Shown here piece after piece: positions 4,884-49,262 of a stretch of 64,000 bases of DNA (positions are counted from its first letter, which is position 1; every line of letters begins with the position of its first letter). The notes below the pieces were generated by a model. That model saw only the letters and a list, made by a program, of their open reading frames with translations. It searched no databases and was not told where the DNA came from. The stretch is from NCBI GenBank assembly GCA_964496695.1, contig CAZCBE010000004.1:32123-96122 (forward strand), read 5' to 3'. Origin of the DNA: an uncultured Klebsiella sp. GTDB taxonomy: Bacteria; Verrucomicrobiota; Verrucomicrobiia; Limisphaerales; SXTU01. The translations under genes and the position numbers were made by a program.

Positions 4884-6257
4884 ATGCCGAATGTGAACGC
4901 CAGCGCAGCCAACCCGCTCGCGGCGAACCACTTTTCCCGCCGCAGCTTCGTGCGCGGCGTCGGGGCATCGCTCTTCCCCTTGGCCGCCGGCTGGTCGCAC
5001 GCCGCGGGCATGGGGCCGCTCCGCACGGGCAAGGCCAAGTCGGTCATCATGATCTTCAACGGGGGCGCGCCCAGCCACCTGGACTTGTGGGACCCGAAGC
5101 CCGATGCCGCCGATGACATTCGCGGTCCGTTCCGGCCGATCAAGACGAACGTCACCGGCACACATATCTCGGAGCTGCTCCCGCGCATGGCCAAGCGGAT
5201 GGACAAGGTGGCGCTCATCCGCTCGGTCCATCACAAGCACAGCAGCCACAATGGCGGCATGCACTGGGCCACCGTGGGCCGGCCCTACGTGGTGGACAGC
5301 ACGCTAATCACGCCCAGCCGCACGGACATCCCGTGCTTCGGCACGCTCATCGGCTGGCTCGCGCGACGCGATGGCTACAGTGAAGGCGTGCCGCCCTACG
5401 TCATCACGCCCTTCCCGCACTGCGACAGCAAGGTTTACCTCACGCCCGGCCAGTTCGGCGGCTGCCTCGGCGCGCGCTTCGATCCCTACGTGCTGGATGA
5501 CGATCCGAACTCGGCCTCGTTCAAGGTGCGCAATCTCGGCCTCGACGAGAGCCTGACCCCCGTGCGCTTTCAGGAGCGCCTCGGCCTGCTGCAGGAACTC
5601 ACGGTCAACGCGCCGAAGATCGCTTCGACGAGCGTGGCCGAGATGGATGTCTTCAATCAGCAGGCGGCCTCGCTCCTCCGCTCCGGCAAGGCGGCGGATG
5701 CGTTCGATTTGAGCAAGGAGCCCGCCTCCGTGCGCGAGCGCTACGGACGGCACAGTTGGGGTCAGTCGCATCTCCTGGCACGCCGTCTCATTGAATCTGG
5801 CACGCGCTTTGTCTCCACGGTGAACGGTCCGAGCATTACGTGGGACACCCACAAAGACAACTTCAACACCTTGAAGAACCGCCTCGTTCCGCCCATGGAT
5901 CAGGCCTACGCCGCGTTGCTCGATGACCTGGAAGAGCGCGGCCTGCTGGACTCGACGCTCGTCATCTGGATGGGCGAGTTCGGGCGCACGCCCAAGATCA
6001 ACGCCGATGTCGGGCGTGATCACTGGCCCGGCTGCTACAGCGTCCTGCTGGCGGGCGGCGGCATCCGTGGCGGTCAAGTGGTGGGGGCCTCCGATGCCAT
6101 CGGGGCGTATCCAAAGGAGCGGCCCGTGAGCCCGGCAGACATCCACGCGACCGTATATGCCGCGCTGGGCTACGACGCGGGCAACATCCACTTCATGGCT
6201 TCGGATGGCCGCCCGATGCCGCTCTGCGAAGGCACGCCGATCAGCGAAGTGCTCTGA
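4884..6257 (+). CDS. DUF1501 domain protein (sulfatase-like fold) with Tat signal
   Basis: First ATG at 4884 gives MPNVNASAANPLAANHFSRRSFVRGVGASLFPLAAG (twin-arginine motif). The ORF is long, with conserved DUF1501-type blocks (GGAPSHLDLWDPKPDA, GEFGRTPKIN...RDHW). A second paralog lies at 35321. Confidence 0.85.
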   Translation: MPNVNASAANPLAANHFSRRSFVRGVGASLFPLAAGWSHAAGMGPLRTGKAKSVIMIFNGGAPSHLDLWDPKPDAADDIRGPFRPIKTNVTGTHISELLPRMAKRMDKVALIRSVHHKHSSHNGGMHWATVGRPYVVDSTLITPSRTDIPCFGTLIGWLARRDGYSEGVPPYVITPFPHCDSKVYLTPGQFGGCLGARFDPYVLDDDPNSASFKVRNLGLDESLTPVRFQERLGLLQELTVNAPKIASTSVAEMDVFNQQAASLLRSGKAADAFDLSKEPASVRERYGRHSWGQSHLLARRLIESGTRFVSTVNGPSITWDTHKDNFNTLKNRLVPPMDQAYAALLDDLEERGLLDSTLVIWMGEFGRTPKINADVGRDHWPGCYSVLLAGGGIRGGQVVGASDAIGAYPKERPVSPADIHATVYAALGYDAGNIHFMASDGRPMPLCEGTPISEVL

Positions 6258-6335
6258 GGCAGCAGGCGCGCGGCATTCATGCCGCTTCAAGTTGCTGCGC
6301 TCTTTGGTGTCCGATTGCACGGTGGCGTTTGAACG

Positions 6336-6785
6336 ATGAAGCGGCCTGAAGGCCGCGCTCCTCAACTCAATCGCCTCGCCCCACCCGCCTTCGCCATGAA
6401 ACCCGCCGCCAAGCCTCCGCCGGACTCCCCATTTCCCGCCATCTTCACCCGGCTGCGCGCCATCCTTGAGCCCTACGCCGCCCGGCTCACCGTCACAGCC
6501 AACGCGCCGGACCACTACTGCCTCGCCCTGGACTACAGCCCCAAGTTTAAGAAGGGGTTTCCCGTCGCCTGGGTGAAAATCAGCCGGGCCTACGTGAGCT
6601 ACCATTTCATGCCCGTTTATATGTTCCCGCAGCTCCGCGACGGCCTTTCGCCCAAGCTGCGCGCGCGGATGCAAGGGAAGTCCTGCTTCAACTTCAAGCA
6701 GCTCGACGAACCGCTCTTCGAGGAACTGGCCCGGCTCACCACCACCGGCCTCGCCACCGCGCGCAAATCCGGTGTGGCCGGCTGA
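6336..6785 (+). CDS. DUF1801 (YdhG-like) domain protein
   Basis: 149-aa ORF. The segment HYCLALDYSPKFKKGFPVAWVKISRAYVSYHFMPVYMFPQLRDGLSPKLRARMQGKSCFNFKQLDE resembles the DUF1801 fold family. The start could instead be the internal ATG at 6396. Confidence 0.6.
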   Translation: MKRPEGRAPQLNRLAPPAFAMKPAAKPPPDSPFPAIFTRLRAILEPYAARLTVTANAPDHYCLALDYSPKFKKGFPVAWVKISRAYVSYHFMPVYMFPQLRDGLSPKLRARMQGKSCFNFKQLDEPLFEELARLTTTGLATARKSGVAG

Positions 6786-7013
6786 CCCGGCTTCCGGCAG
6801 TCGAAGATTCAGCGGGTAGCCCATGCCACCCAGTTGCTTCGGATTAAATCCAGTTTGACACCCCCGCCCTCGCTCGCTAGAAATCCCACCATCAGCCAGA
6901 GGTCGGATGAGTGGGGAAAACCATCATTCAAGGTGTGCTCTGGTCCGCGACGCCGCCGGACCTGCGGCCCTTTCGTCTCCTGAATTCAGTGACCTCCCTG
7001 GCAGGGCCGACCT

Positions 7014-7292
7014 GTGGTCGGCCTCGTCTTCCATATCAACACCCTCCGCCTGCAACAGCAGCAAGCCACCATCAAGACCAACCGCGAACGCGAGGAAGTC
7101 CAGCCCGTCTTCACCGAAGCCCTGCTCGTCTGCCGGGACTTCGCTGAGATCACCGAATTCTTCTTCCGCAAAGACCTCGACGACGCCAGCCGCCGCCAAA
7201 AATGCGCACAATGGGGCGTCAACTACATCTTCGAGCCGAACGAACCCGGTGCGCCGCCGGCATCCAACCCGGCGACAGCGCCCAATACCTGA
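7014..7292 (+). CDS. hypothetical small protein (about 92 aa), non-ATG (GTG) start
   Basis: Open frame with very strong G/C bias at third codon positions (host-like coding signature), ending 32 bp before the AT-rich NTPase gene. No recognisable motif. The start codon is uncertain. Confidence 0.35.
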   Translation: MVGLVFHINTLRLQQQQATIKTNREREEVQPVFTEALLVCRDFAEITEFFFRKDLDDASRRQKCAQWGVNYIFEPNEPGAPPASNPATAPNT

Positions 7293-7324
7293 TTTCGGAA
7301 ACACCTTGAGCGCTTCAATATCTT

Positions 7325-8848
7325 ATGACTGAAAAGCCTCTATACGATAATTTACAGCACATTGATTTGGGCAACGGTGTGGCAGAGCACGATAATCTGT
7401 TACGAAAATGCCTTGTTGAGACTCAGCATTTTACCGACCTGCTGTTTGACCGCATTGATCTTGTGTTAGGAAGCAAGGGCGCTGGAAAATCTTCTCTCTT
7501 TAGAATATTTGGGGAAGTTCTGGAAGATACATTGTTCACTAGATGGAAGACGATAGCGGTGTCTGGAGTAGAGACTAAGGGTGATCCGATATTTAAGGCA
7601 TACGCTGCAAATTTTGAGAAGTTCTCAGAAAGCCAGTTCGAGGCGTTTTGGAAAGCATATTTGTTGGGCCTTGTCTATAACAAGATTTTCCATGATGAAC
7701 GAGCCGCTTCTGTATTCGCCAATTATCCAGAAGAACTCTCCAATTTCAGGAAACATTACGTAAGTCTTGGGTTAATCGATGTCGGTCGGCTATCTTCGCC
7801 GACGAAAGTTCTCAAGTTTGTTTGCGCCTTTACAATAGCTGCTATCGAAGGTGCAAAGGCGGCGTGGGACATGGAAAAGAACCAGCTTGTTTTTGGAGTG
7901 AATATCCGTGATAAGATAGACAAAGGGTATCAAGAGATCACCGTCCCTGATTTAGCCAACCTTGACACGGTCTTGTGCATCGACGCGCTGTCAGAACTTG
8001 TTCAAAAGAGTGGTTTTAAAATATGGATTCTTCTCGATCATCTTGACGTGGTTTTTAGAAGGCGTTCGCCCGAAGAAACTAAAGCCCTGCGAGCACTACT
8101 CAAGGTCTTATATGCCATGACCTCCGAACACCTTCGGTTGAAAATATTCCTGCGGGATGACATTCTGGATGCAATCAGCACTGATTCCATTGAACCTCTA
8201 GCGGGCGTCTCCCATATTACGGCTCGGTCTGGACCAAATCTAAAATGGACTTCCGATTCTTTATGCGTGATGATCATGAAAAGACTTGCCTCCGACTTCT
8301 GGCTCTCCACGAAGTATTCACTTGAAGCGGATAAGCTCGAAAGCGTTGATTATGCACGAGAAAGTTTTCAAAAGATCTTCGCCCTGAAATACGTGACCCA
8401 ACAGGCGTTTGATTGGATTTATTCGCTTCTCTCGGACGGACGCGGTGTCGTAACGCCACGCGATTTAATCGATTTGCTAAAAAAGGCCCTGCACATTCAA
8501 TCGCTTTGGCTTCAAAAGCACCCTGACAAGACAGAGTTTATGACTATTGTGGCAATCCAAGAAGCTCACAAGGAACTCTCTAAAAACAGGAAAGAAACCG
8601 TGCTTCAGACAGAGTTTTCCCACTTGAAGCATTGGATTGTGAAGTTGGAGAGAAACAAAGAACAGTATGGAAAGGATGAGCTTTCAAGCGTTTTCGGCGC
8701 GGATTGTGACAAGGCAATCTCCACACTGCAAGCGATAGGGGTGATACAGTTCGATCACAAAAAGGCCGCTTATCGTGTTGCCAAACTTTACGGACCTGGG
8801 CTGCAAGTCTATGCCACGCGAGCAAAGAGGCAGTCTAATGAAAGATAG
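7325..8848 (+). CDS. P-loop NTPase, KAP-family-like (Walker A GSKGAGKSS; Walker B-like ILLDHLDVVFRRRSPEE), horizontally acquired
   Basis: 507-aa ORF with ATG at 7325. Walker A is near residue 50. A long insert separates it from an hhhhDxLD motif followed by R..PEE..K.L..LLKVL. This matches the KAP P-loop pattern of a long Walker A-to-B spacer and DDLDR-type Walker B. AT content is much higher than the flanking DNA. Confidence 0.8.
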   Translation: MTEKPLYDNLQHIDLGNGVAEHDNLLRKCLVETQHFTDLLFDRIDLVLGSKGAGKSSLFRIFGEVLEDTLFTRWKTIAVSGVETKGDPIFKAYAANFEKFSESQFEAFWKAYLLGLVYNKIFHDERAASVFANYPEELSNFRKHYVSLGLIDVGRLSSPTKVLKFVCAFTIAAIEGAKAAWDMEKNQLVFGVNIRDKIDKGYQEITVPDLANLDTVLCIDALSELVQKSGFKIWILLDHLDVVFRRRSPEETKALRALLKVLYAMTSEHLRLKIFLRDDILDAISTDSIEPLAGVSHITARSGPNLKWTSDSLCVMIMKRLASDFWLSTKYSLEADKLESVDYARESFQKIFALKYVTQQAFDWIYSLLSDGRGVVTPRDLIDLLKKALHIQSLWLQKHPDKTEFMTIVAIQEAHKELSKNRKETVLQTEFSHLKHWIVKLERNKEQYGKDELSSVFGADCDKAISTLQAIGVIQFDHKKAAYRVAKLYGPGLQVYATRAKRQSNER

Positions 8849-8881
8849 TTTGTTGAGTTAAATGGCGAACGGACACACACC

Positions 8882-9249
8882 ATGCAATCCCAAGCCACCA
8901 CCATTTCCGAATACCTTGAGGAGCTTCCACCCGACCGTCGTGCCGCCTTGAGCGAGTTGCGCGCCCTCATCCACCGCGTCGCCCCCAAAACAGTCGAGGC
9001 CATGCAATACGGGCTGCCCGCGTTTGGCGACCTTTGCGCCCTGGCCTCCCAGAAGAACTACATGGCGCTCTACGTATGCGAGAGCGACCTCGTGCAGGCG
9101 CATCTGGCGCAGTTGGCAAGGTCAGTTGCGGCAAGGGCTGCATCCGCTTCAAGCGTCTCACCGACCTGAACCTGAGCACGGTGGAGAGTCTGCTGCGGGA
9201 GATTTTGAAGCGGCGCCAAGCCGGCATCGGCCCGAGCTGCGGCAGATGA
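8882..9249 (+). pseudogene. DUF1801 (YdhG-like) gene disrupted by a 1-nt deletion (frameshift near 9113-9120)
   Basis: Frame 2 ORF 8882-9169 (MQSQATTISEYLEELPPDRRAALSELRALI...YGLPAFGD...NYMALYV...QAHLAQL) continues in frame 1 (...GKVSCGKGCIRFKRLTDLNLSTVESLLREILKRRQAG, stop 9249). At ttggcaag a single G appears to be missing relative to ttgGgcaag. This is either a true pseudogene or a sequencing error. Confidence 0.6.
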
Positions 9250-9416
9250 GTCCCACGCCGCCAACCATGAACCGCCCGCAGCAGACCCAAAGATTAGGGG
9301 CGGACAAAGGTGGGCTTGGAAATCTTTGTCCGCCTCAAATCTTTGGGTTGCCTGTCTTTGTTTCTGGGTTCCAATGCGCGGTCAATGACGATGACCGGTT
9401 CATCCGGTTCCCTTTT

Positions 9417-10156: not shown

Positions 10157-11338
10157 TCAATACAGCCGCGTGGATTCCTCGCGTTTGATGGGCTTCTCGA
10201 ACTGGTCGGTGGTGAACTCGACTTTGAAGCGGGCATCGTCCGCCCGCAGCGCCTTGGTCAGCACGCGCCAGGTGGCCACGGCCTTGCCTTCGAGGGAGGG
10301 CAGGGCGGTCATGGTGACGGTGCGGCCCTGCGCCTGCACCGGGGTGCTGCCCGAGCCGTAAACGAACTCCTGGCTGTCCGGCACCGTGCAGGTGAAGCGG
10401 ATGCCGGTGCCGGTCTGGTTCCCCTGATTGGTGACGGTGACGACATAGGTGACGACCTTCCCCACCTCGATGGGGTCCTCGAGATCAATGACTTCCACGA
10501 GCACGGCATAGACGCCGAGGATCTGGGTGAAGCATTCGCAATACGCCGGGCCGGCCACCGCGCCCGTCACCGTGGACTTGAACTCCAGCCGTCCCGGCCG
10601 CTCCGTGGTGAAGGTGGCGCAGACCTCGCGCGGGCCGCCCATGGTGAGGTTGGCGATCTCCCAAGTCACGCGGTCAAAACTGATCACGCCGCCGTCCGTC
10701 GCGCTGGTGGCCGTGGCTCCCGCCGGAATGGGCACCGTGACGGTGGCCCGAGGCTCGGGGCCGTCTCCGTTGTTGCGGACGGTGAAGCATACCTTTACCG
10801 GGCGTCCGGTGAACTGCCGCTCCGGCGCGGTGCAGGTCAGCGCGAGCCGGGGGACCGGCACCGGCTCCGGGCCGAGGTCCTCGACAAAGAAGTTGCTGCA
10901 CGCCTTGGGCGTGATGCAGCGGTAGCGCCGGCCTTTGGAGGAGAAGTTGAACCAGTAGCACGGCGCGGCTTCCTCGCCCGCCCAGAGCACGTCCCGCAGG
11001 CAGATGGCGATGCCGTCCTTCCGCGACGACATGAAGGGCATCCGGGTGCCGACAGGGATCTTGCCGTCGTTGATCTCGGCGGTCTGGGCGGCCCGGTGGA
11101 TGTCCTCCAGGCTGCCGGGCCAGCCCCACTGCGCGAGGATCGAGGCGATGTCCGGCTTGAGCTTCTCGTCGCGGAAGCGCTCGCGCAAATCCTCGGGCGT
11201 CTTGAGCGGCGGGGCGAAGCGGGTCAGAGGATGGCCCAGCCGGGTGGCGCGGTGCTGCTGGGCCGGAGCGGAGCCGGGCAGCAGAGTGAGCAGGGCAAAG
11301 GCGAAGCCGAGCAGCGAAAGCGCAGTGCGTTTCATCAT
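10157..11338 (-). CDS. secreted DUF11 (conserved-repeat domain) protein
   Basis: Tandem ATG-ATG at 11338/11335 gives MMKRTALSLLGFAFALLTLLPGSAPAQQ (signal peptide). It contains DUF11-like beta-repeat blocks (VTYVVTVTNQGNQTGTGIRFTCTVP, VKVCFTVRNNGDGPEPRATVTVPIPAG). The upstream in-frame extension is Pro/Ser/Arg-rich and is probably non-coding. Confidence 0.7.
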   Translation of the reverse strand: MMKRTALSLLGFAFALLTLLPGSAPAQQHRATRLGHPLTRFAPPLKTPEDLRERFRDEKLKPDIASILAQWGWPGSLEDIHRAAQTAEINDGKIPVGTRMPFMSSRKDGIAICLRDVLWAGEEAAPCYWFNFSSKGRRYRCITPKACSNFFVEDLGPEPVPVPRLALTCTAPERQFTGRPVKVCFTVRNNGDGPEPRATVTVPIPAGATATSATDGGVISFDRVTWEIANLTMGGPREVCATFTTERPGRLEFKSTVTGAVAGPAYCECFTQILGVYAVLVEVIDLEDPIEVGKVVTYVVTVTNQGNQTGTGIRFTCTVPDSQEFVYGSGSTPVQAQGRTVTMTALPSLEGKAVATWRVLTKALRADDARFKVEFTTDQFEKPIKREESTRLY

Positions 11339-36667: not shown

Positions 36668-36901
36668 GGTGTCGGCAGAGCGCCGGTCTCCGACCCGGCG
36701 TGGTCGTAGTGCGATCACTCTCAACGCTGGAGCGCAGGTGAGCCGATGGTGAGGAGCGTGGCCTGCAGGCCGCAGGAACGTTAGCAGGCCGCTGGTGATT
36801 CTAACGGAATCGTTCCAACTGTGGCTTTCTGCTGCGTGAACGCCGCGCTCCGGGCGGGGTCAACGCGCCGGGTCGGAGACCGGCGCTCCGGAACCAGCCG
36901 C

Positions 36902-38578: not shown

Positions 38579-38738
38579 AGCGGCGCGCAGATTGCCTTGC
38601 TACGCTGATGAAGGCGATACTTTTGAATCGCCGAGGGGCGCGGCATTTATGCCACTTCAGCGGGCGAGGGCGCAGAGCGTAAGATTGCTCAGGAGTGCTC
38701 CACGGCGAAGCGGCATGAATGCCGCGCGCCGGGGAGGG

Positions 38739-49092: not shown

Positions 49093-49262
49093 CGAAACAC
49101 GCGAAAGACGCAGAAAGCGAAATCAGACAAATTGGGTCGGAGAGATTTTCGGCCATGTCCCCATTTTTCTGACCCTTGGCCGTTCTACCTGAGATACGGT
49201 GGCAACTCTTTGTCCGTCCCGAATCTTTGGGTCATTACTTTTCGCGTCATTTCGCGTGTTTA
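49093..49262. repeat. imperfect ~22-bp inverted repeat pair enclosing an AT-richer ~120-bp core (MITE-like or structured element)
   Basis: aaacacgcgaaagacgcagaaagcgaaa (49093-49120) vs tttcgcgtcatttcgcgtgttt (49238-49260, rc = aaacacgcgaaatgacgcgaaa). Confidence 0.4.

What the first reader, a model, noticed from the sequence alone, without database searches (positions are those of the whole stretch)
7290..8880. AT-rich, apparently horizontally acquired solitary KAP-like P-loop NTPase wedged between two DUF1801 genes
Seen in sequence: the 7325-8848 ORF is conspicuously AT-rich against a ~65% GC background. The composition switch occurs at about 7290 and about 8860. The protein has Walker A GSKGAGKSS near residue 50, about 190 residues before an hhhhD-x-LD motif (IWILLDHLDVVF), which is followed by RRRSPEETKALRALLKVLY. 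This long Walker A-to-B spacing and the DDLDR-like Walker B plus downstream PEE..L pattern is what defines KAP-family NTPases. No TM insert is apparent. The C-terminal ~260 aa are helical with no motif I recognise. Inference: a foreign-origin NTPase with no partner genes (the upstream 92-aa ORF has host-like codon usage). It may be a single-gene defense or abortive-infection-type factor, or a remnant of a larger mobile element. The adjacent DUF1801 gene carries a frameshift, which may be collateral to the insertion.
Basis: partly seen in the sequence, partly recalled or inferred. Interest (0 to 1): 0.7.

Follow-up and report, generated by a model that had tools for sequence, protein, structure and literature searches.

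The report
Horizontally acquired solitary Sll1717-family ATPase
A single AT-rich gene dropped into a variable slot of a GC-rich Verrucomicrobia genome encodes an ORC/Cdc6-like ATPase of the already curated "Sll1717" family, one distant branch of which was recently shown to protect E. coli from phages, so this is a plausible but unproven single-gene defence factor, not a new kind of system.

Summary
The sequence observation holds. ORF 7325-8848 (507 aa) has 45% GC and GC3 0.48, against about 64% GC and GC3 0.73-0.90 in its neighbours.

The KAP label does not hold. No Pfam KAP match appears in this protein or in 65 relatives. The protein passes NCBI's curated "P-loop ATPase, Sll1717 family" model (129 bits, cutoff 75). 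A confident AlphaFold model is an ORC/Cdc6/STAND-type AAA+ module: a core with a helical insert, a lid and a winged helix. It has no effector domain.

Related Verrucomicrobia keep the flanking genes but lack this gene, and one has an empty slot. DNA similarity to homologues stops at the ORF ends. In 92 non-redundant loci no neighbouring gene is conserved, so the gene is solitary.

The experimentally validated single-gene E. coli anti-phage protein DS-41 passes the same family model. It belongs to a distant clade, and direct profile comparisons between the two clades are weak.

Verdict: a recently acquired new member of a known family. A defence role is plausible by analogy only, and the mechanism is unknown. 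The upstream neighbour is not a detectable DUF1801 protein. The downstream DUF1801 frameshift is real but lies away from the junction.

The parts
6260..9416 (.). Variable slot between the conserved DUF1501 gene (ends 6257) and the p236 lipoprotein-like gene (starts 9417). Its content differs among related Verrucomicrobia.
   Evidence: L007 has DUF1501 followed within about 90 nt by the p236 homologue, an empty slot. L004 and L005 share only p149. L004 carries other cargo in place of 6779-9414.
7284..8880 (.). AT-rich foreign segment (GC about 0.45), essentially just the ATPase gene with about 35 nt on either side.
   Evidence: Composition profile and change-point fit. blastn similarity to homologous loci covers only 7324-8831.
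7325..8848 (+). 507-aa P-loop ATPase of the Sll1717 family: ORC/Cdc6/STAND-type AAA+ core, lid and winged helix.
7469..7495 (+). Walker A, GSKGAGKSS (residues 49-57).
   Evidence: G49, G52, G54 and K55 are invariant in 66 sequences. Position.
7589..8011 (+). About 140-residue helical insert with a beta-hairpin between strand beta2 and the Walker B strand (residues about 89-229). It is soluble, with no TM segment.
   Evidence: Secondary structure of the model. Hydropathy maximum 1.46.
8021..8056 (+). Walker B, IWILLDHLDVVF (residues 233-244), followed by the conserved RRS motif.
   Evidence: W234, D238, L240 and D241 are invariant. R246, R247 and S248 are at least 90% conserved.
8141..8161 (+). 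KIFLRDD strand (residues 273-279), at the sensor-1 position of the AAA+ core.
   Evidence: K273, F275, L276, R277, D278 and D279 are invariant. Strand 270-277 in the model. The sensor-1 assignment is inferred from AAA+ topology.
8207..8518 (+). Helical lid (residues about 295-398). It contains the invariant TPRD (377-380, nt 8453-8464), the likely sensor-2 arginine.
   Evidence: T377, P378, R379 and D380 are invariant. The C-terminal model matches the lid and WHD of SSO1545, NB-ARC, Cdc6 and CED-4. The sensor-2 role is inferred.
8546..8803 (+). Helical hairpin (residues 408-441) plus a winged-helix domain (about 447-493).
7014..7292 (+). 92-aa orphan ORF with host-like codon composition. It is not a partner of the ATPase.
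   Evidence: No homologue other than itself among 5.8 billion clusters. Absent from relatives and from all other ATPase loci. GC1/2/3 of 0.63/0.42/0.80.
8882..9249 (+). DUF1801 gene disrupted by a 1-nt frameshift located between 9104 and 9118. The simplest cause is a lost G in the GG run at 9115-9116.
   Evidence: Pfam match split between two frames, with the repaired protein matching full length. The sequence was read directly. An independent assembly is identical.
6336..6785 (+). 149-aa conserved hypothetical protein (p149). It is shared with L004 and L005 and is not a detectable DUF1801 member.
   Evidence: tblastn at 84-89% identity to L004 and L005. No Pfam DUF1801 match. Only a motif-level match to the downstream protein.
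6264..6363 (.). About 100-nt palindromic dispersed repeat at the left edge of the variable slot.
   Evidence: The element matches its own reverse complement. Copies occur at window 38633-38730 and 36737-36851, and in L004 at 5820-5920 and 10473-10576.
9285..9348 (.). 25-nt inverted repeat hairpin near the right edge of the slot.
   Evidence: 92% complementary arms. A related copy lies at window 49204-49233.

Best explanation
The 7325-8848 gene is a recently acquired, stand-alone member of the Sll1717 family of P-loop ATPases.

Shown:
- It is one intact gene with all catalytic motifs.
- It folds as an ORC/Cdc6/STAND-type AAA+ module. This comprises a nucleotide-binding core with a roughly 140-residue helical insert, a lid carrying a TPRD sensor-2-like motif, and a C-terminal winged helix. 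There is no nuclease, protease or other effector domain.
- It sits in a variable slot that is empty or holds different cargo in related Verrucomicrobia.
- It moves between very different hosts as a single gene without any conserved neighbour.

Inferred:
- It acts as a single-protein anti-phage or anti-mobile-element factor, like the distantly related family member DS-41.
- The most likely mode is an ATP-gated switch that oligomerises on sensing an invader cue. It would then use its winged helix and helical insert to bind nucleic acid or a phage replication or packaging component, as ORC/Cdc6, TnsC and MuB assemble on DNA. This would block phage DNA replication or packaging directly, without activating a separate enzyme.
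- The identity and acquisition parts are near certain. The defence role is about even odds. The specific DNA-binding and oligomerisation mechanism is a guess, at about 0.2-0.25.
For: Family:
- NF047389 scores 129.2 bits against a cutoff of 75. Relatives score 135-221 bits.

Fold:
- The AF2 model has pLDDT 90.8.
- The C-terminal domain is a lid plus WHD.

Acquisition:
- GC is 0.45 and GC3 0.48, against 0.64 and 0.73-0.90.
- The gene is absent from the syntenic loci L004, L005 and L007.
- DNA similarity ends at the ORF boundaries.
- In the close clade gene GC does not track host GC (r 0.20, slope 0.08). Family-wide the gene sits about 8 points below its flanks.

Solitary:
- No neighbour cluster occurs in more than 2 of 92 loci.

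Functional:
- All 40 invariant family residues are present.
- dN is 0.13-0.21 with saturated dS.

Defence link:
- DS-41 is a single 502-aa gene. It gave 1-3.6 log protection against several BASEL phages (PMC13092281).
- DS-41 passes NF047389 at 97.6 bits, and its homologues are named Sll1717 family by NCBI.
- All 66 clade members match the PADLOC candidate PDC-M28C, with a best E of 3e-19.
- Family members occur on 14 predicted viral or prophage contigs.
- Some copies lie next to AbiE, TIR, HigB, M78, resolvase or IS genes.
Against: - The link to DS-41 is remote. The window protein scores only 25 bits on the DS-41 equivalog model, whose cutoff is 370.
- hhalign between the two clade profiles gives E 0.005, probability 6.7% and 18% identity, and covers only the C-terminal half.
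- Reciprocal hmmsearch finds essentially nothing. Function transfer across such a distance is weak.
- Bulk scanning of 148 flanking ORFs shows mostly unrelated genes, often housekeeping, with only scattered defence or mobility hits. There is no control set.
- No effector domain is present, and the mechanism of DS-41 itself was not studied.
- No promoter, expression or phenotype data exist for this organism, an uncultured MAG.
Confidence: 0.55

Rival explanations
1. It is a KAP-family P-loop NTPase. That would make it a relative of Kidins220/ARMS/PifA-type NTPases, including phage-exclusion proteins such as PifA.
Against: Pfam KAP_NTPase is not matched by the protein at E<=1, nor by any of 66 relatives at E<=0.1. 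nSTAND1, NACHT, AAA_16 and ORC-CDC6-like recur instead. There are no TM helices in the insert. Forty structures rank above the KAP-annotated one. A different curated family model is passed.
Confidence: 0.03
2. It is a mobile-element maintenance or targeting ATPase and not an immunity protein. Examples would be a TnsC/MuB/IstB-like target-DNA activator, or a replication or partition factor of a degraded integrative element or satellite, stranded here as a remnant.
Against: No transposase, integrase or replication gene is conserved next to it in 92 loci. Homology between copies stops at the ORF ends, with no shared terminal repeats. Most copies sit alone among ordinary chromosomal genes. There is strong purifying selection on a gene that would be useless without its element. 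The window has no tRNA or mobility gene nearby.
Confidence: 0.15
3. It is an accessory ATP-dependent regulator: a MalT/STAND-like or Cdc6-like DNA-binding switch controlling host genes or chromosome processes. On this view it is beneficial for reasons unrelated to phages.
For: The C-terminal winged helix resembles MarR-type regulators, and MalT is among the structural neighbours. Many copies lie in ordinary metabolic neighbourhoods.
Against: Distribution is patchy across phyla and composition is foreign. No conserved target operon or neighbour exists. The gene is absent from sister genomes at the same locus. The only tested family member is an anti-phage protein (PMC13092281).
Confidence: 0.12
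4. The copy in this genome is silent or non-functional cargo. It would have been recently inserted without a promoter and be drifting towards loss like the neighbouring DUF1801 pseudogene.
For: Only about 35 nt of AT-rich DNA precede the ATG, and there is no convincing sigma-70-like promoter or SD upstream. The adjacent gene is frameshifted. The un-ameliorated composition implies a short residence time.
Against: The ORF is full length, and every invariant residue of the 66-sequence alignment is retained. It could be co-transcribed with the upstream 92-aa ORF on the same strand. Verrucomicrobial promoters are not covered by the scan.
Confidence: 0.1

Closest known systems
NCBIfam NF047389, 'P-loop ATPase, Sll1717 family' (named after Synechocystis Sll1717)
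   Same: The protein passes the curated cutoff (129.2 against 75 bits) over residues 15-459. It has the same length of about 500 aa and the same stand-alone architecture as other members.
   Different: Nothing separates it from the family. It belongs to a sub-clade of 50-80% identical sequences, found mostly in uncultured soil, sediment and groundwater bacteria. No paper in the searchable library mentions Sll1717, so the family name carries no known function.
DS-41 ('AAA2', WP_033812887.1), a validated single-gene E. coli anti-phage system (DefensePredictor, Science 2026, PMC13092281); NCBIfam NF053860
   Same: DS-41 also passes NF047389 (97.6 bits). It is a single gene of about 500 aa. The layout is colinear: an N-terminal acidic motif, Walker A near residue 55, a helical insert of about 190 residues, a Walker B of the form hhhhDxLDE, a (S/T)PR(D/E)LI lid motif and a C-terminal winged helix.
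   Different: The window protein scores only 25 bits on the DS-41 equivalog model, whose cutoff is 370. Identity is about 18%. Direct profile-profile and HMM searches are weak or negative. DS-41 is proteobacterial. No activity has been tested for this clade.
Archaeal Walker-type AAA+ ATPases PABY2304 (2qen) and SSO1545 (2fna); Pfam ATPase_2
   Different: Identity is 12-14%. They lack the roughly 140-residue helical insert. There is no significant Pfam ATPase_2 match. Their functions are also unknown.
ORC/Cdc6 initiators, and the DNA-bound AAA+ oligomers TnsC and MuB
   Different: There is no sequence-level membership. Pfam ORC-CDC6-like is matched below threshold in 15 of 66 relatives. No partner proteins are present, and distribution is sporadic rather than universal.
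Defence-associated AAA+/STAND ATPases: BrxC (BREX), RdrA (RADAR), Avs3/Avs5, and the PADLOC candidate PDC-M28C
   Different: All of those work with partner genes or with fused effector and sensor domains. This protein has neither. PDC-M28 is a multi-gene candidate, and its A and B partners are not found here.
KAP family P-loop NTPases (Pfam PF07693)
   Same: Both have a long insert between Walker A and Walker B and a sporadic phyletic pattern.
   Different: There is no profile match, no TM helices in the insert, and better matches elsewhere.

Membership tests
Sll1717-family P-loop ATPase (NCBIfam NF047389) | Whole-protein score at or above the curated cutoff of 75 bits | tested here: met
   129.2 bits, E 2.3e-37. 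Close homologue P0002 scores 135 bits and distant relatives score 140-221 bits.
Sll1717-family P-loop ATPase (NCBIfam NF047389) | Near full-length colinear match to the 454-position profile | tested here: met
   Residues 15-459 align to profile positions 1-393. The C-terminal winged helix is less well covered.
Sll1717-family P-loop ATPase (NCBIfam NF047389) | Intact Walker A lysine and Walker B acidic residues | tested here: met
   K55, D238 and D241 are present and invariant in 66 sequences.
DS-41 anti-phage protein (NCBIfam NF053860 equivalog) | Score at or above the curated cutoff of 370 bits | tested here: not met
   25 bits, E 8.3e-6. DS-41 itself scores 414 bits.
DS-41 anti-phage protein (NCBIfam NF053860 equivalog) | Single-gene system of about 500 aa without partners | tested here: met
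   The protein is 507 aa. No conserved neighbour is found in 92 loci. DS-41 is one 502-aa gene.
DS-41 anti-phage protein (NCBIfam NF053860 equivalog) | Protection against phage when expressed | not testable with these tools
   Requires plaque assays. This is shown only for DS-41 (PMC13092281).
KAP NTPase (Pfam PF07693) | Match to the KAP_NTPase profile | tested here: not met
   Not listed at E<=1 for the protein, nor at E<=0.1 for any of 66 relatives.
KAP NTPase (Pfam PF07693) | Transmembrane helices inserted within the P-loop domain (present in many KAP members) | tested here: not met
   The maximum 19-residue hydropathy is 1.46. The insert is modelled as soluble helices at pLDDT 72-98.
KAP NTPase (Pfam PF07693) | Long Walker A to Walker B spacing | tested here: met
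   183 residues. This feature is not exclusive to KAP, since DS-41 and other Sll1717 members share it.
STAND NTPases (NACHT/NB-ARC/nSTAND) | Tripartite NBD, helical domain and winged-helix module | tested here: met
   The full model and the C-terminal model match CED-4, Apaf-1, NRC1, Avs3/5 and MalT.
STAND NTPases (NACHT/NB-ARC/nSTAND) | Significant match to a STAND Pfam model | tested here: not met
   nSTAND1 scores 15.6 bits against a cutoff of 27.1. It is sub-threshold in 55 of 66 relatives, with a best E of 1.6e-5.
STAND NTPases (NACHT/NB-ARC/nSTAND) | Fused effector and/or repeat-type sensor domain | tested here: not met
   The protein ends after the winged helix. Only rare relatives carry extras such as HEAT repeats or a methyltransferase.
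ORC/Cdc6-type AAA+ ATPases | AAA+ core, lid and WHD fold with Cdc6/Orc1 among the top structural neighbours | tested here: met
ORC/Cdc6-type AAA+ ATPases | Sequence-profile membership (Pfam ORC-CDC6-like, Cdc6 families) | tested here: inconclusive
   Matches are sub-threshold in 15 of 66 relatives, with a best E of 0.0024. The profile search of PDB sequences found no significant hit.
PADLOC candidate system PDC-M28 | Match to component C | tested here: met
   E 1.2e-11 for the protein, covering residues 224-323 only. 66 of 66 relatives match, with a best E of 3e-19.
PADLOC candidate system PDC-M28 | Presence of the partner components A and B nearby | tested here: not met
   No conserved neighbours are found. 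No PDC-M28A or B appears among the flanking-ORF hits listed (top 25 only).

The most novel reading that the evidence does not exclude
This clade is about 18% identical to DS-41 and is spread through uncultured Verrucomicrobiota, Omnitrophota and other phyla. It always travels as one gene of 43-51% GC whatever the host. It could be a distinct effector-less immune protein whose minimal ORC/Cdc6-like ATPase is itself the weapon. For example, it might polymerise on invading DNA, or titrate a phage replication initiator or terminase. That would define a new mechanistic class of single-protein defence, separate from STAND systems that activate fused effectors.
Probability: 0.2. Interest if true: 0.6.

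Novelty: new member of a known kind. Interest (0 to 1): 0.3.

Why it matters
This is a clean example of single-gene horizontal acquisition into a hypervariable chromosomal slot of an uncultured Verrucomicrobium.

It also corrects a tempting mis-assignment. A long Walker A to Walker B spacing does not imply KAP.

The wider interest lies in the family. Sll1717-type ATPases form about 2,700 clusters at 50% identity. They are minimal ORC/Cdc6/STAND-like modules without effectors, and one branch (DS-41) protects E. coli from phages by an unknown mechanism. If distant clades such as this one are also defensive, the family would be a widespread immune module that acts without an effector domain. The window's gene adds a data point but does not by itself open that question.

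Tried and rejected
- KAP membership was rejected by Pfam scans of the protein and of 66 relatives.
- A sequence search of all PDB chains with the family profile returned only P-loop-level noise from ABC transporters.
- Literature searches for 'Sll1717' and 'PDC-M28' returned no papers.
- The search for insertion signatures was negative. No convincing flanking direct or inverted repeats bracket 7284-8880, there is no tRNA in the window, and no mobility gene lies nearby.
- P0049 is a fusion of the ATPase with an Mrr nuclease domain, which at first looked like a swapped effector. The Mrr part starts in mid-domain ('GGTGDEGIDG') directly after ATPase residue 297. It is more likely a deletion chimera between two adjacent genes in a locus that also carries AbiEi/AbiEii nearby, and not evidence for a modular effector.
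- Longer family members were checked for fused effectors. Only HEAT repeats, a methyltransferase and a tandem duplication were found, with no consistent theme.
- Direct clade-to-clade comparison with DS-41 by hhalign and reciprocal hmmsearch was weak or negative. I therefore do not claim close homology.
- Bulk Pfam and PADLOC scans of 148 flanking ORFs gave no clear defence-island signal and had no control set.
- The dN/dS ratio could not be computed because dS is saturated. Only dN is reported.
- The 92-aa ORF was tested as a possible partner or antitoxin. It is an orphan.
Full report
**Observation**

The window averages 63.8% GC. The stretch 7201-8800 falls to 43-47%. A three-segment likelihood fit puts the change points at about 7284 and about 8920. 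In 60-nt steps the switch lies at 7280-7310 and 8850-8910. This is the lowest of all 1.5-kb windows and the only one below 55%.

The stretch holds one ORF, 7325-8848 on the + strand, 507 aa. Its GC3 is 0.48, against 0.73-0.90 for eight neighbouring genes.
- GSKGAGKSS at residues 49-57.
- IWILLDHLDVVF at residues 233-244.
- RRRSPEETKALRALLKVLY at residues 245-263.
- K55 to D238 is 183 residues.

No segment is hydrophobic enough for a membrane helix. The maximum 19-residue Kyte-Doolittle score is 1.46.

**Flanking genes**

The downstream gene 8882-9249 is a DUF1801 gene split over two frames. Its N-terminal part matches Pfam profile positions 1-49 (36.8 bits). Its C-terminal part, in another frame, matches positions 56-84. 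Restoring one base between 9104 and 9118 gives a full-length match (1-84 of 85, 59.3 bits). The simplest cause is a lost G in the GG run at 9115-9116. An independent Logan assembly seen in three samples has the identical sequence, so the frameshift is not an assembly slip.

The upstream 149-aa ORF (6336-6785) is not detectably DUF1801. It shares only a 34-residue 'GK.C..FK.L' motif with the downstream protein, at E 0.013 in a single comparison.

A 92-aa ORF (7014-7292) lies between p149 and the ATPase. Its position-specific GC is host-like (0.63/0.42/0.80). It has no homologue other than itself among 5.8 billion clusters.

**What the protein is**

Pfam gives no KAP_NTPase match for the protein or for any of 66 aligned family members at E<=0.1. 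The recurring sub-threshold matches are nSTAND1 (55 of 66), NPHP3_N, AAA, AAA_16, ORC-CDC6-like and NACHT.

NCBIfam places it above the curated cutoff in NF047389, 'P-loop ATPase, Sll1717 family' (129.2 bits against 75, residues 15-459).

The 66-sequence alignment (A1) has these invariant residues:
- G49, G52, G54 and K55.
- W234, D238, L240 and D241.
- K273, F275, L276, R277, D278 and D279.
- H297.
- T377, P378, R379 and D380.

An AlphaFold2 model built on this alignment is confident (mean pLDDT 90.8, pTM 0.88).

Structural neighbours:
- Foldseek's best solved-structure hits are archaeal Cdc6/Orc1, PABY2304 and the BREX ATPase BrxC.

I modelled residues 295-507 separately (pLDDT 93.8). That model matches the lid plus winged-helix portions of SSO1545, NB-ARC proteins, Cdc6 and CED-4, along with MarR-type winged helices. 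The 'unrecognised' C-terminal 260 residues are therefore the AAA+ lid, with TPRD at the sensor-2 position, followed by a helical hairpin and a winged helix. The long Walker A to B spacing is a soluble helical insert with a beta-hairpin between beta2 and the Walker B strand. There is no nuclease, protease, TIR or other effector domain.

**Origin**

The flanking DUF1501 protein identifies the host as a Limisphaerales/Pedosphaera-type Verrucomicrobium.

- The closest relative, L004 (95% identity for DUF1501), keeps the gene order DUF1080, DUF1501, p149 ... p236, p393, HMA, cNMP. It lacks the 92-aa ORF, the ATPase and DUF1801.
- At nucleotide level, window 6779-9414 is replaced in L004 by 845 nt encoding an unrelated 216-aa protein.
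- L004 also carries two further insertions in the same neighbourhood, one of them AT-rich.
- L005 shares p149 only.
- L007 has DUF1501 followed within about 90 nt by the p236 homologue, which is an empty slot.

So 6260-9416 is a variable slot with nested acquisitions, and the AT-rich ATPase is its compositionally youngest layer.

DNA similarity between the window and loci carrying 70-80% identical proteins covers only 7324-8831. No repeats bracket the segment, and the window has no tRNA.

In ten loci of the close clade, gene GC is 0.43-0.51 while flank GC ranges from 0.41 to 0.65 (r 0.20, slope 0.08). Fifty-eight more distant relatives partly track their hosts (r 0.63). Family-wide the gene is about 8 GC points below its flanks, and the window's copy is the extreme at -20.

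dN against eight homologues is 0.13-0.21 while synonymous sites are saturated. The clade is therefore under purifying selection, and the actual donor has not been sampled.

**Solitary or not**

I inspected nine annotated contexts. None shares a neighbour, although AbiEi/AbiEii, a TIR protein, HigB/HTH, Peptidase_M78, resolvases, and IS21, DDE or Y1 transposases occur nearby in individual cases.

I then collected 80 metagenomic and 14 viral or prophage loci. I called ORFs within 4 kb and clustered them. Among 92 non-redundant loci, 56 had at least 1.5 kb upstream and 53 had at least 1.5 kb downstream. No neighbour cluster occurs in more than two loci. The gene is a self-contained unit.

Bulk Pfam and PADLOC scans of the 148 nearest flanking ORFs are heterogeneous. 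They show a few integrases, HTH regulators, AAA_21/AriA-type ATPases, methylases and a TIR protein, but also many housekeeping enzymes. Without a control set this supports no more than a weak defence-island association.

**Link to a known function**

The weak NCBIfam hit 'DS41_1_antiphage' (25 bits, cutoff 370) led to the DefensePredictor paper (PMC13092281). There DS-41 (lab code AAA2, WP_033812887.1) is a single 502-aa gene. It protected E. coli against several BASEL phages, for example 3.6 log on Bas63 and 2.7 log on Bas3.

Homologues of DS-41 are named 'P-loop ATPase, Sll1717 family' by NCBI. DS-41 itself passes NF047389 at 97.6 bits as well as its own equivalog model at 414 bits. Family members on viral or prophage contigs pass NF047389 at 174-221 bits and touch the DS-41 model at 34-60 bits.

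The window protein and DS-41 are thus members of one curated family with the same size, single-gene status and motif order. They belong to distant clades, however:
- hhalign between the clade profiles gives E 0.005, probability 6.7% and 18% identity, over the Walker B to winged-helix half only.
- Reciprocal hmmsearch is essentially negative.

The paper did not study DS-41's mechanism.

All 66 clade members also match the PADLOC candidate component PDC-M28C, with a best E of 3e-19. That candidate's partner genes are not present here.

**Family size**

An exhaustive profile search of 1.84 billion representatives finds 2,664 clusters at E<=1e-3, 1,365 at E<=1e-10 and 531 at E<=1e-30. Almost all are about 500 aa. 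Rare longer members add HEAT repeats, a methyltransferase or a tandem copy.

One chimera, P0049, joins residues 1-297 to a truncated Mrr nuclease domain in a locus that also carries AbiEi/AbiEii nearby. It looks like a deletion product and not a designed fusion.

**Mechanism**

Shown: the gene is intact and under selection, and it encodes an effector-less ORC/Cdc6/STAND-type AAA+ module with a winged helix. It moves alone.

Inferred: it is a single-protein anti-phage or anti-mobile-element factor. My preferred model is an ATP-gated switch that oligomerises on an invader cue. It would bind DNA or a replication or packaging protein through the winged helix and the helical insert, and block the invader directly, as ORC/Cdc6, TnsC and MuB assemble on DNA.

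My confidence is about 0.95 for identity and acquisition, about 0.5 for a defence role and about 0.2-0.25 for the specific mode of action.

The rivals are:
- A stranded mobile-element ATPase.
- An accessory regulator.
- Silent cargo.
- KAP membership, which was tested and not met.

**Verdict**

The foreign-origin and solitary parts of the interpretation are supported. The KAP assignment and the 'two DUF1801 genes' framing are not.

This is a new member of a known, curated family whose only tested representative is a defence protein. It is ordinary as a genomic event and moderately interesting as a pointer to an effector-less family of unknown mechanism. Interest 0.3.

Noticed in passing
window 6264-6363; also 38633-38730 and about 36737-36851; L004 5820-5920 and 10473-10576: A palindromic intergenic repeat of about 100 nt that matches its own reverse complement. 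It is dispersed in this genome and its relative, and one copy sits exactly at the left edge of the variable slot. It may be a REP/MITE-like element that promotes recombination there.
   Followed up: partly
window 9285-9348; related copy at 49204-49233: A 25-nt inverted repeat (92% complementary, 14-nt loop) just downstream of the frameshifted DUF1801 gene, near the right edge of the slot. A second copy lies elsewhere in the window. It is probably a terminator or REP-type hairpin.
   Followed up: partly
L004 2024-2452 (closest relative): Another AT-rich insertion (GC about 0.47) between DUF1501 and p149. It encodes a 142-aa protein with a sub-threshold Imm74 (immunity protein) match, E 5e-5. 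This shows that the same neighbourhood collects foreign genes in the sister lineage too.
   Followed up: partly
L004 3038-3688 and 4498-5784: The relative carries a 216-aa signal-peptide, TPR-like protein where the window has p92, the ATPase and DUF1801. It also has an extra 428-aa Ig-domain protein between p236 and p393. The whole region is a mosaic.
   Followed up: partly
L085-L087 3745-4983 (P0049): A chimeric gene found on 13 contigs. ATPase residues 1-297 are joined to an Mrr_cat nuclease domain that begins in mid-domain. An AbiEi/AbiEii pair lies about 1 kb upstream in the same loci. It is likely a deletion fusing two adjacent defence-type genes.
   Followed up: partly
L175 2147-4831 and L180 154-2841 (IMG/VR contigs): On two predicted viral contigs, Sll1717-family genes lie about 1.1 kb downstream of an 894-aa P4-alpha-like primase. 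This suggests carriage by P4-like satellites, which are known to hold defence hotspots.
   Followed up: no
window 7014-7292: A 92-aa ORF with host-like codon-position GC but no homologue in 5.8 billion protein clusters. It is either a lineage-specific orphan gene or the remnant of an older insertion.
   Followed up: partly
record titles: Several GTDB representative MAGs that clearly carry Verrucomicrobia DNA are titled Klebsiella, Proteobacteria or Akkermansia muciniphila in their records. This indicates mislabelled public MAG taxonomy.
   Followed up: no
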